Of a stretch of 64,000 nucleotides of DNA, positions 57,246-58,623 are shown one piece after another. Source of the stretch: Escherichia coli (GTDB lineage: Bacteria > Pseudomonadota > Gammaproteobacteria > Enterobacterales > Enterobacteriaceae); the NCBI RefSeq assembly GCF_050920415.1, contig NZ_CP169309.1; one strand, written 5' to 3'. Under the pieces are notes generated by a model, which worked only from the letters and a program-made list of their open reading frames with translations, was not told the origin of the DNA and did no database searches. How positions within the stretch are numbered: the first letter of the stretch is position 1; every line of letters begins with the position of its first letter. Made by a program: the position numbers and the translations under genes.

Positions 57246-57734
57246 TTATTTGATAAGAAGTGAAGGTTTCCCAACTTTGAGTTGAGCGCCGGGGATATTT
57301 ATTCCTGCTTTTAGTTGGTGTTTGATTGCCAGTTTGTCGGCTTTAATTGTTGTTTCAAACTCAACGTATTCTGGAGGAAGGGCGCTTGAGTCGATGATTT
57401 CTACAGTTTCTGACGGTTTGCGGATTGTTACCTGGTGAATACCTGCTCGAATCTTTTTCTTTCCAACCATTTCAAGCGATGACGCTATATACGTCATAAT
57501 GCTATCAATCTTATTTTGAATTACTGCTGCTCTTTCATTCAGTGACTTTGCCTCTTCCTTGAGGCGTTCAGCATAACCAGACTCATTTTTAATAATGGCA
57601 AGAAGTTGCTCTATTTTATCGGTAAATTCTCCTTCCATGCCTTCTATTGTGTCAGCAATCATCTCTGGTTCTAAATCTGAATCCATCAATTTTGCGTATT
57701 CATTGGCAATTTCATACAGTTTGCTCACTGGCAA
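57246..57734 (-). CDS. Siphovirus Gp157-family protein
   Basis: 162-aa acidic coiled-coil protein immediately downstream of recT; family call from recall of recT-linked Gp157-like proteins. Confidence 0.5.
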   Translation of the reverse strand: MPVSKLYEIANEYAKLMDSDLEPEMIADTIEGMEGEFTDKIEQLLAIIKNESGYAERLKEEAKSLNERAAVIQNKIDSIMTYIASSLEMVGKKKIRAGIHQVTIRKPSETVEIIDSSALPPEYVEFETTIKADKLAIKHQLKAGINIPGAQLKVGKPSLLIK

Positions 57735-58623
57735 CCTCCAGTTTCGCTTTGCATTCTATGTAAATGGCTTGTACGTTCTGCTGCAATTTCATTCCAGATG
57801 TCAGGCGATATGCTTCTGCAAAATATCGCTTCAAATCATCCATGTTTTCTGCCTGAGCCATTTCATCGCAAAGAAGTTGTGCTTTATCCATTATTTCCTG
57901 CTGGCGTTTCCGTTCATCTTCGCGGATATCTTCCTCTGATTTGTGCGGCATAACTGGTTCAGTCCATACACCTTCTTCTTCGTTTAGTACGTGAATAGCA
58001 CTATCAAGACGTGATGCCTTAGGCCAATACTTGCTTGCACGCTTCACGACCGTCTTTCGCGCCATCTCATTCCAGTGATTTACCCATGGTCCTTTATCGC
58101 TGAATGCCGCCTTGCTTGTTTTCCTTACAGCCTCAATTTCAGCAATACTCATCTCTTCCGTTAGATAATCACCTGCCGGCGTCTTAACTGTGCAGTAAAC
58201 GCCAACGATATCACCACGATCACCGAAGGCGTTGTATTTATGGGTTGGTGCTTTATCAAGCCCGTTTGACTCATAGGTATCGTTAGCATGAACAAGTTTT
58301 GCCTGACCCCATGAGATAACACCAGACTCCATTGCAATATGGAGCAATCCCATATAGCTGATATCAAGGCAAACCATGCCGTCGCGCGGAACCAGATAAG
58401 CCAGTTTGCTGGCCGGGTTTAAGGTGATGCCGATCGCCGCAACATTGATGATGGCGTTCTGTGCGCTGGTTGGATTTGCCAGTGCTGTTTTAGCCAGGTA
58501 ATCATTTTTCTGGAAATACTGAATTGCAAACTGGCTTTCCTTAGCCCATGTCACCGTCTGTTCAGTCAATGCTCCGCAGAATAACTGCTCCTGCTGTTTA
58601 ACGAATTCAACGATATTGCTCAT
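57712..58623 (-). CDS. recT: RecT-family single-strand annealing recombinase
   Basis: 303 aa; GPWVNHWNEMARKTVVKRASKYWP motif resembling RecT (GPWVTHWEEMAKKTAIRRL...). Confidence 0.8.
   Translation of the reverse strand: MSNIVEFVKQQEQLFCGALTEQTVTWAKESQFAIQYFQKNDYLAKTALANPTSAQNAIINVAAIGITLNPASKLAYLVPRDGMVCLDISYMGLLHIAMESGVISWGQAKLVHANDTYESNGLDKAPTHKYNAFGDRGDIVGVYCTVKTPAGDYLTEEMSIAEIEAVRKTSKAAFSDKGPWVNHWNEMARKTVVKRASKYWPKASRLDSAIHVLNEEEGVWTEPVMPHKSEEDIREDERKRQQEIMDKAQLLCDEMAQAENMDDLKRYFAEAYRLTSGMKLQQNVQAIYIECKAKLEVASEQTV

What the first reader, a model, noticed from the sequence alone, without database searches (positions are those of the whole stretch)
57246..58623. RecT recombinase paired with a Gp157-like protein and no adjacent exonuclease
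The recombination module has a RecT-family annealase translationally coupled to an acidic coiled-coil Gp157-like protein, but no RecE/lambda-Exo-like nuclease ORF on either side in this window. Whether this RecT works with a distant or host nuclease, or with one of the neighbouring unknown ORFs, is open.
Basis: inference. Interest (0 to 1): 0.3.

Follow-up and report, generated by a model that had tools for sequence, protein, structure and literature searches.

The report
RecT plus Mu-Gam-like partner, no exonuclease
This is the ordinary recombination module of an HK140-type lambdoid prophage: a RecT strand-annealing protein coupled to a Mu-Gam-like (Gp157) protein, with no exonuclease, an arrangement already catalogued in E. 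coli phages.

Summary
The gene at 57712-58623 (-) is a RecT. The gene at 57246-57728 (-) is a Sipho_Gp157 protein whose start overlaps the recT stop by 17 nt. No ORF between the excisionase and cI matches any nuclease family.

The arrangement is not unusual. The same recT-gp157 block (96-99% identical) is present in viable phages HK140, mEpX1, Kapi1 and Gally, and in 80 viral contigs. HK140's annotation lists no exonuclease gene anywhere in the genome. Zheng et al. 2025 (PMC12315714) describe HK140 as "SAP-4 + MuGam, no nuclease, no SSB". They report that 84 of 246 lambdoid Rec modules lack a nuclease.

Gp157 is best read as a Mu-Gam-like, DNA-end-binding anti-RecBCD protein. This rests on remote homology and has not been tested.

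One small new point emerged. The last ~48 residues of RecT form a portable module. It is found only in annealases followed by Gp157, including an Erf in Pantoea phage PdC23. Closely related RecT cores followed by lambda-Exo homologues carry a different tail, in three of five cases the lambda Beta C-terminal domain. This suggests that Gp157 docks on RecT.

A conserved 103-aa ORF occupies the lambda gam slot.

Verdict: already known, low interest.

The parts
57712..58623 (-). recT: RecT-family single-strand annealing protein, 303 aa (SAP-4 type of Zheng et al. 2025)
   Evidence: It matches Pfam RecT at 5.8e-32 over residues 31-217, phrog_148 at 3e-92 and TIGR00616 at 4e-23. There is a weak match to the Listeria RecT structure 7UB2. 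It is 99.7% identical to mEpX1 RecT.
57736..57873 (-). C-terminal module of RecT (residues 251-296, called 'CTD-G' here), the proposed Gp157-docking domain
   Evidence: It is 54-57% identical to the C-terminus of the Erf protein of Pantoea phage PdC23. It was found in 24 phage records. Gp157 is the next downstream gene in the five diverse records re-checked (PA-1, HK639, KO-TP1, phiA005, 4_L372X), in HK140 and in Pseudomonas phage 15b. In PdC23 Gp157 follows after an inserted HNH gene. It is absent from five related RecT cores that are followed by lambda-Exo homologues.
57246..57728 (-). gp157: Sipho_Gp157 family protein, 160 aa, Mu-Gam-like. Presumed DNA-end-binding, anti-RecBCD protein and RecT partner
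   Evidence: It matches Pfam Sipho_Gp157 at 1.2e-36 and phrog_253 'Mu Gam-like end protection' at 2e-53. The match to Pfam Phage_Mu_Gam is below threshold (E 0.005), and 14 of 138 family members give such a match, best 5e-6. The GTG start follows a GGAGG and overlaps recT by 17 nt. The AF2 model has pLDDT 96.
58620..58931 (-). orf103: acidic 103-aa protein of unknown function. Its stop overlaps the recT start (ATGA). It occupies the slot held by gam in lambda and by GamL in HK639
   Evidence: phrog_3486, unknown function. There is no Pfam, NCBIfam, PDB or PADLOC match. Only 27 database clusters were found. The AF2 model is all-helical but low-confidence, pLDDT 53. It is present in 77 of 80 near-identical loci. 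Homologues lie just upstream of the annealase in PA-1, ENT47670 and Midgardsormr38, and in PdC23 (PdC23's upstream ORF matches the PA-1 homologue, not orf103 directly).
56920..57234 (-). orf104: basic HTH-like protein homologous to phage Mu gp9 (E8). It starts 11 nt after the gp157 stop
   Evidence: It matches phrog_323 at 5e-20 and Mu gp9 by BLASTP at 5e-5. In Mu, gp9 lies next to gam. It is present in 80 of 80 near-identical loci.
57735..57739 (-). Shine-Dalgarno GGAGG for gp157, inside the 3' end of recT
   Evidence: Read directly from the sequence: GGAGG, then ttgcca, then GTG.

Best explanation
This is the homologous-recombination (Rec) module of an HK140-type lambdoid prophage. It sits in the middle of the leftward early (pL) operon and is transcribed away from cI.

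It has two recognisable genes. RecT anneals complementary single strands. Gp157 is a remote relative of phage Mu Gam and is inferred to bind double-stranded DNA ends. That would keep RecBCD and other exonucleases off linear phage DNA, such as rolling-circle tails and cut cos ends.

The phage encodes no 5'-3' exonuclease of its own. RecT must therefore use single-stranded DNA made in another way: at replication forks (lagging-strand gaps) or by host nucleases and helicases.

In function the module belongs with P22 (Erf + Abc2), that is 'annealase plus anti-RecBCD', and not with lambda Red or Rac RecET, that is 'annealase plus exonuclease'.

Shown here: gene identities, coupling, absence of a nuclease, and conservation of the block in viable phages. 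Inferred: end binding by Gp157, RecBCD protection, and the source of ssDNA.
For: - Gene identities and coupling.
- Gene order matches lambda's N, cIII, kil, gam, bet, exo. Here orf103, recT and gp157 occupy the gam, bet and exo slots.
- The same block occurs at 96-99% identity in isolated phages HK140, mEpX1, Kapi1, Gally, Louie and Dewey.
- The whole HK140 genome has no exonuclease annotated, only NinB/Orf, RusA and two HNH genes.
- In 80 viral contigs with 97-99% identical Gp157, RecT abuts Gp157 in 78 of 79, and lambda exo, bet and gam are found in 0 of 80.
- Published classification: HK140 = SAP-4 with MuGam, no nuclease, no SSB. 84 of 246 Rec modules lack a nuclease, and 46 phages fall in the 'P22 type', anti-RecBCD + SAP (PMC12315714).
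- Link to Mu Gam: PHROG annotation; sub-threshold Pfam matches in 14 of 138 family members; a colinear hhalign match; published HHpred of a Sipho_Gp157 protein to the Gam structure 2P2U at 99.4% (PMC10530707).
- The Gam-like gene is paired with a Mu gp9-like gene both here and in Mu.
- Gp157 also accompanies Sak4, Erf and Rad52-like annealases without an exonuclease (PMC8093625).
Against: - My own tests of the Gam relationship were weak. The Pfam Phage_Mu_Gam score is 17 bits against a 28.3 cut-off. hhalign probability is only 17.6% against a shallow Mu Gam profile.
- The Gp157 profile does not find 2P2U in the PDB, although the Mu Gam profile does.
- No experiment on any Gp157 protein was found in the literature searched.
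- HK639 and KO-TP1 carry a lambda-Gam-like GamL as well as Gp157. That fits poorly with Gp157 being only a RecBCD inhibitor.
- The right arm of this prophage lies outside the window.
Confidence: 0.75

Rival explanations
1. Gp157 is mainly a dedicated partner of the annealase rather than a free-standing RecBCD inhibitor. It sits at DNA ends and recruits or loads RecT through RecT's C-terminal ~48-residue module, as lambda Exo recruits Beta through the Beta C-terminal domain. On this reading, orf103 in the gam slot would be the RecBCD inhibitor.
For: - The RecT tail tracks the downstream gene, not the phylogeny of the RecT core.
- The CTD-G tail with a nearby downstream Gp157 is seen in the window, HK140, PA-1, HK639, KO-TP1, phiA005, 4_L372X, Pseudomonas phage 15b, Vibrio phage 1.247.B and metagenomic locus L087. 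Gp157 is the next gene in all of these.
- It is also seen on an Erf core (Pfam ERF 6e-44) in PdC23, where an HNH gene lies between erf and gp157.
- RecT cores 46-75% identical to this one but followed by YqaJ/lambda-Exo homologues lack CTD-G. In ENT47670, Midgardsormr38 and an Stx2 phage the tail is the lambda Beta C-terminal domain, up to 72% identical. Vibrio 1.178.O and Asa56 carry a third type.
- The Beta C-terminal domain is known to bind Exo and SSB (PMC11611040).
- All these hosts include E. coli, so host SSB alone cannot explain the different tails.
- HK639 and KO-TP1 carry both GamL and Gp157.
- orf103 homologues accompany the annealase whichever downstream partner is present.
Against: - The co-variation could be simple linkage. 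A recombination junction at the core/tail boundary keeps the tail with whatever lies downstream.
- Sak4 annealases paired with Gp157 have no CTD-G.
- A RecT next to a 39%-identical Gp157 (L089) has only a faintly similar tail.
- No interaction was modelled or measured.
- orf103 has no detectable similarity to Gam or GamL, and its model is unreliable.
Confidence: 0.35
2. One of the neighbouring unknown ORFs (orf103, orf104, orf181, orf105, orf114 or Ead/Ea22) is a cryptic exonuclease that serves RecT.
For: Several neighbours have no assigned function. orf103 and orf104 are tightly linked to the pair in 77-80 of 80 loci.
Against: - There is no nuclease match in Pfam, PHROGs, NCBIfam, PADLOC or the PDB.
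- orf103 is predicted to be all-helical. Known recombination exonuclease folds (PD-(D/E)XK, DnaQ) need a central beta-sheet; that last point is from my own knowledge.
- orf104 is a Mu gp9-like HTH protein.
- Most candidates (orf103, orf104, orf105, orf114) are 103-114 aa, against 226-271 aa for the YqaJ-type partners seen elsewhere. orf181 and the Ead/Ea22 protein (253 aa) are excluded only by the family searches.
- Only orf103 was modelled. The other ORFs were judged from family searches alone.
Confidence: 0.05
3. The module is a decayed remnant that has lost its exonuclease by deletion in a defective prophage, or the exonuclease lies elsewhere in the prophage beyond base 64000.
For: The window ends just after cII, so the right arm cannot be seen. 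The integrase is not next to the excisionase.
Against: - The identical arrangement, with intact translational coupling, occurs in plaque-forming phages and in 80 viral contigs.
- The HK140 annotation lists no exonuclease gene in the complete genome.
- The separation of int and xis matches the known layout of the KplE1 prophage in E. coli K-12 (my own knowledge). PGAP annotates this excisionase as TorI in a related strain.
Confidence: 0.04
4. Gp157 is a phage-resistance or exclusion protein, as its Pfam description and some database names ('resistance protein') suggest. On this reading it has nothing to do with recombination.
For: The Pfam family text and names such as 'Resistance protein' on relatives.
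Against: - There is no PADLOC match.
- The gene sits consistently beside RecT, Erf, Sak4 or Rad52-like annealases in unrelated phages (PMC8093625).
- As far as I recall, the 'resistance' label comes from a cloned S. thermophilus phage origin fragment near orf157, not from the protein. I did not check this here.
Confidence: 0.03

Closest known systems
Rec module of coliphage HK140 (also mEpX1, Kapi1, Gally): SAP-4 + MuGam, described by Zheng, Casjens, Davidson, Amundsen and Smith 2025 (PMC12315714)
   Same: The genes and their order are the same (orf103-recT-gp157-orf104-DUF2737) at 96-99% identity. [quoted passage not shown]
   Different: Essentially nothing differs within the module. The flanking accessory genes are mosaic, and here the phage is a prophage beside the csc sucrose genes.
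Phage P22 Rec module (Erf, Abc1, Abc2, Arf)
   Same: The functional type is the same: an annealase plus a protein that neutralises RecBCD, with no phage exonuclease. This is Table 1 class C, 'P22' type, in PMC12315714.
   Different: The proteins are unrelated. P22 has an Erf core rather than RecT. Abc2 binds RecC and modifies RecBCD, whereas Mu-Gam-type proteins bind DNA ends.
Lambda Red (Gam-Beta-Exo) and Rac RecET
   Same: The operon position and gene order are the same. RecT is a relative of Beta and RecT. The annealase has a two-domain layout with a partner-specific C-terminal tail.
   Different: The exo slot holds Gp157 instead of a YqaJ or RecE exonuclease. The gam slot holds the unrelated orf103. 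The RecT tail is CTD-G rather than the Beta Exo-binding domain.
Phage Mu Gam (host-nuclease inhibitor, Ku-like end binder; related structure PDB 2P2U)
   Same: Size is similar (160 vs 174 aa). My Gp157 model has a long N-terminal helix plus a small C-terminal domain. Sequence matches are colinear but sub-threshold. A gp9-like gene is adjacent in both.
   Different: The two belong to different Pfam and PHROG families: PF05565/phrog_253 against PF07352/phrog_491. Mu has no annealase next to gam. End binding by Gp157 has not been tested.
Gp157/Mu-gam-like genes beside erf or sak4 in Firmicutes phages (PMC8093625)
   Same: The family is the same, and it shows the same habit of sitting next to an annealase, usually without an exonuclease.
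   Different: In those phages the partner is Erf or Sak4, usually with an SSB, and Gp157 lies upstream. Here the partner is RecT, Gp157 lies downstream and there is no SSB.

Membership tests
RecT family (Pfam PF03837) | Sequence match to the RecT annealing core above the curated threshold | tested here: met
   111.3 bits against a cut-off of 24, residues 31-217. TIGR00616 gives 82 bits against 52.65. phrog_148 matches at 3e-92.
RecT family (Pfam PF03837) | ssDNA annealing activity | not testable with these tools
   Inferred from homology only.
Sipho_Gp157 (Pfam PF05565) | Full-length match above the curated threshold | tested here: met
   126.6 bits against 28.6, profile positions 1-162 of 162. 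All 138 diverse relatives in alignment A1 match the family.
Phage Mu Gam family (Pfam PF07352; structure 2P2U) | Sequence match above the curated threshold | tested here: not met
   17.2 bits against 28.3, E 0.005. Mu Gam itself falls in phrog_491, not phrog_253. The Gp157 profile does not retrieve 2P2U.
Phage Mu Gam family (Pfam PF07352; structure 2P2U) | Remote homology or a shared fold | tested here: inconclusive
   14 of 138 family members hit Phage_Mu_Gam, best 5e-6. hhalign is colinear over 101 columns but only 17.6% probable. Foldseek against the PDB gave no 2P2U hit. Published HHpred of another Sipho_Gp157 protein to 2P2U gives 99.4%.
Phage Mu Gam family (Pfam PF07352; structure 2P2U) | Binds dsDNA ends and blocks RecBCD and other exonucleases | not testable with these tools
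   No experimental work on a Gp157 protein was found.
Exonuclease-annealase pair (lambda Red / Rac RecET type) | A YqaJ/lambda-Exo or RecE 5'-3' exonuclease gene contiguous with the annealase | tested here: not met
   No nuclease family matched any ORF between 54457 and 62732. Lambda Exo was found in 0 of 80 near-identical loci. The same search did find Exo homologues next to related RecTs in other phages.
'P22-type' Rec module: anti-RecBCD + SAP, no nuclease, no SSB (Zheng et al. 2025) | [quoted passage not shown] | tested here: met
   No SSB or nuclease match was found. The paper places HK140, which carries the same module, in this category. The anti-RecBCD role of Gp157 is itself only inferred.
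Lambda Gam / GamL family (tested for orf103) | Sequence similarity to Gam or GamL | tested here: not met
   BLASTP found no match between orf103 and lambda Gam or HK639 GamL, whereas GamL matches Gam at 3e-5. Only the gene position is shared.

The most novel reading that the evidence does not exclude
Gp157 may be more than a RecBCD blocker. It may be an end-binding docking factor for annealases, recognised through a portable ~48-residue C-terminal module (CTD-G) that has been grafted onto both RecT and Erf cores. In that case 'annealase + Gp157' would be a true two-component machine, parallel to 'annealase + exonuclease'. The conserved orf103 family in the gam slot would then be an unrecognised RecBCD inhibitor or a third component.
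Probability: 0.3. Interest if true: 0.5.

Novelty: already known. Interest (0 to 1): 0.22.

Why it matters
As given, the finding matters little. It re-finds a catalogued module type in a common E. coli prophage.

Its modest value is practical and comparative. Nuclease-less RecT modules show that phage annealases do not need a cognate exonuclease. That bears on how recombineering systems are chosen and on models in which annealing happens at replication forks.

The tail/partner co-variation offers a simple, testable handle on a question that a 2023 review (PMC11611040) calls unknown: whether RecT-type annealases use a C-terminal domain to bind their partners. It also addresses what the very large Gp157 family actually does (7268 clusters at 50% identity).

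Tried and rejected
- Foldseek against the PDB gave nothing below E = 6 and did not find 2P2U. Foldseek against BFVD gave only Gp157-family proteins.
- The afdb50 library was not available.
- The orf103 model has pLDDT 53 from a 10-sequence alignment. That is too poor for a fold search, so none was run.
- The search for related loci with the diverse Gp157 alignment failed because no stretch was conserved enough. I sampled annotated phage records instead.
- The Mu Gam profile I could build was shallow, with members >= 72% identical. This limited hhalign.
- NCBIfam and PADLOC added nothing for the unknown ORFs.
- Chi count: 0 in the 9.6 kb of prophage against 6 in the 54 kb of host DNA. This agrees with the published trend, but the stretch is far too short to mean anything.
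- The S. aureus Sak/Sak4 paper says nothing about the Gp157-like neighbour.

Full report
**Context**

Bases 54.4-64 kb of the window are the left (pL) arm of a lambdoid prophage in an E. coli-type chromosome. To its left lie the csc sucrose genes (48955-53933).

On the minus strand, reading away from cI (62019-62732), the genes are:
- two unknown ORFs;
- an N-like antiterminator;
- a sieB-like gene, on the plus strand;
- orf77, cIII, kil, orf40 and orf103;
- recT and gp157;
- orf104, a DUF2737 gene, orf181 and orf105;
- an Ead/Ea22 gene and orf114;
- a small AlpA/TorI-like excisionase at 54457-54657.

Lambda's order is N, ral, ea10, cIII, kil, gam, bet, exo. So orf103, recT and gp157 occupy the gam, bet and exo slots.

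**Checking the observation**

The 303-aa ORF at 57712-58623 is a clear RecT. It matches Pfam RecT at 5.8e-32, phrog_148 at 3e-92 and TIGR00616 at 4e-23.

The next ORF is a full-length Sipho_Gp157 protein, Pfam 1.2e-36. The mechanical ORF begins at TTG 57734. However, a GGAGG at 57735-57739 lies 6 nt before GTG 57728, and that is the start annotated in HK140. The gene is therefore 57246-57728 (160 aa) and overlaps the recT stop by 17 nt.

The orf103 stop overlaps the recT start (ATGA), and orf104 starts 11 nt after gp157.

Gp157 is mildly acidic, with pI 5.36. It is predicted with high confidence (pLDDT 96) to be a long helix at residues 21-88 plus a small C-terminal domain.

None of the ORFs between the excisionase and cI matches a nuclease family. 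All 19 were scanned with PHROGs; Pfam, NCBIfam and PADLOC covered overlapping subsets.

**Is it unusual?**

It is not.

- The same block is 96-99% identical in isolated phages HK140, mEpX1, Kapi1, Gally, Louie and Dewey. RefSeq annotates it there as 'RecT-like ssDNA annealing protein' and 'Mu Gam-like end protection'.
- The complete HK140 genome has no exonuclease annotated. It has only NinB/Orf, RusA and two HNH genes.
- A scan of viral contigs found 308 relatives. In the 80 best (97-99% identical Gp157), RecT abuts Gp157 in 78 of 79. orf103 is present in 77, and orf104 and DUF2737 in all 80. Lambda exo, bet and gam are present in none.
- Zheng et al. 2025 (PMC12315714) analysed the Rec modules of 325 lambdoid phages. 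[quoted passage not shown] They report that 84 of 246 Rec modules lack a nuclease gene. They also define a 46-member 'P22 type', anti-RecBCD + SAP.

The finding therefore re-discovers a catalogued module.

**What is Gp157?**

The family is very large: 7268 clusters at 50% identity. It is spread over phages of Streptococcus, Vibrio, Staphylococcus, Clostridium, enterobacteria and others.

It sits beside several kinds of annealase:
- RecT, here and in metagenomic locus L087 (RecT-Gp157-SSB);
- Erf, in Pantoea phage PdC23;
- Sak4, in Klebsiella phage VLCpiS13c and Staphylococcus phage StauST398-5;
- a Rad52-like protein, in Pseudomonas phage PseuP_222.

None of these modules includes a phage exonuclease. 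An earlier survey noted that Mu gam-like, sipho_gp157, DUF2483 and DUF1351 genes alternate at the same position next to erf and sak4 (PMC8093625).

The link to Mu Gam is a remote one. My evidence for it:
- a sub-threshold Pfam match (E 0.005), also seen in 14 of 138 relatives, best 5e-6;
- a colinear but weak hhalign match, 17.6%, against a shallow Mu Gam profile;
- a published HHpred hit of another Sipho_Gp157 protein to the Gam structure 2P2U, at 99.4% (PMC10530707);
- orf104 is a homologue of Mu gp9, which is gam's neighbour in Mu.

I therefore accept 'Mu-Gam-like' as the best reading, but I do not file Gp157 as a member of PF07352. Its biochemistry is untested.

**Mechanism**

The best-supported picture is an annealase plus an end-protecting, anti-RecBCD protein, with no phage nuclease. 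This is functionally like P22 Erf/Abc2.

RecT would then act on ssDNA exposed at replication forks or produced by host enzymes. This step is an inference.

**A small new observation**

Many RecT relatives match only residues 1 to about 220-233 of this protein. I compared the tails.

*Annealases carrying CTD-G.* The last ~48 residues (251-296, 'CTD-G') recur in the RecTs of PA-1, HK639, KO-TP1, phiA005, 4_L372X, Pseudomonas phage 15b, Vibrio phage 1.247.B and L087.
- Each of these is followed directly by a Gp157 gene.
- The same tail, 54-57% identical, ends the Erf-core annealase of PdC23 (Pfam ERF 6e-44). That phage carries a Gp157 62% identical to this one.
- tblastn with the tail found 24 phage records. 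All those I checked have Gp157.

*Related RecTs without CTD-G.* Five RecT cores 46-75% identical to this one are followed by YqaJ/lambda-Exo homologues, and all five lack CTD-G.
- ENT47670, Midgardsormr38 and an Stx2 phage carry the lambda Beta C-terminal domain, up to 72% identical.
- Vibrio phage 1.178.O and Aeromonas phage 56 share a third tail type.

*Interpretation.* The Beta C-terminal domain binds lambda Exo and host SSB, and whether RecT-type annealases use such a domain is described as unknown (PMC11611040). The host can be E. coli for both tail types, so the partner gene explains the tails better than host SSB does. This suggests that Gp157 docks on the annealase tail.

*Caveats.* Linkage at a domain-boundary recombination junction would give the same pattern. 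Sak4 partners lack the tail. One divergent pair (L089) has only a faint version of it.

Zheng et al. explicitly left 'shuffling of partner interaction domains' outside their scope.

**orf103**

- This narrow family (27 clusters) lies immediately upstream of the annealase in phages with either kind of partner: PA-1 and PdC23 with Gp157, ENT47670 and Midgardsormr38 with Exo. The PdC23 link is indirect, since its upstream ORF matches the PA-1 homologue rather than orf103 itself.
- GamL occupies the same slot in HK639 and KO-TP1.
- It has no detectable similarity to Gam, and its structure model is unreliable.
- Its position suggests a Gam-like role, but that is speculation.

**Verdict**

Novelty: already known. 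Interest is low. The tail/partner co-variation is a cheap lead for experiments.

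Noticed in passing
window 53934-54657: The left end of the prophage abuts the csc sucrose genes. It begins with a 66-aa excisionase that PGAP annotates as TorI in a related strain. No integrase or tRNA gene is nearby. This looks like the K-12 KplE1/argW-site layout, in which int and xis lie at opposite prophage ends; that comparison is from memory.
   Followed up: partly
window 56920-57234 (-): orf104 is a homologue of phage Mu gp9/E8 (phrog_323; BLASTP 5e-5). In Mu, gp9 is the immediate neighbour of gam. A Gam-like gene and a gp9-like gene are therefore linked both in Mu and in this module.
   Followed up: partly
window 58620-58931 (-); also L097 1491-1802, L103 2178-2486, L104 2184-2486: The orf103 family lies just upstream of the annealase in phages whose downstream partner is either Gp157 or lambda Exo. 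It is the slot held by gam or GamL elsewhere. Its function is unknown.
   Followed up: partly
loci L005-L084 (recT): Among 80 near-identical viral contigs there are two RecT core alleles. In 42 of 80, residues 111-223 are only about 74% identical. The linker, CTD, Gp157, orf103 and orf104 are at least 95% identical in nearly all loci (74-80 of those where each is present). This is a divergent patch inside the core.
   Followed up: partly
L098 1493-3180 (HK639); L099 1496-3180 (KO-TP1): These phages carry both a lambda-Gam-like GamL and a Gp157 flanking the same RecT. That is odd if both proteins only inhibit RecBCD.
   Followed up: no
window 61216-62011 (-): Two overlapping ORFs of unknown function lie between cI and N, which is the rexAB position. 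One is 145 aa. The other is 123 aa and, judging by eye from its sequence, has a coiled coil and a C-terminal hydrophobic helix. Neither gave a PADLOC match. They are candidate lysogen-expressed accessory genes.
   Followed up: partly
L096 2932-3951 (Stx2a phage Stx2_PV11-77); L103 2486-3415 (ENT47670): These are natural chimeric annealases: a RecT-family core fused to the lambda Beta C-terminal, Exo-binding domain. Each is followed by a lambda Exo homologue.
   Followed up: partly
window 31230-47154: The low-GC stretch (40-45% GC) is ordinary E. coli chromosome by domain content. It holds a lipid A acyltransferase, YfdX, two CoA-transferases and a TPP enzyme (frc/oxc-like), a hybrid sensor kinase plus a LuxR-type regulator (evgSA-like), and a membrane-fusion protein with an MFS pump (emrKY-like).
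   Followed up: partly
window 54400-64000: There are no Chi sites (GCTGGTGG) in the prophage part, against 6 in the 54 kb of host DNA. This agrees with the published trend for phages with a Rec module, but the stretch is too short to be significant.
   Followed up: yes
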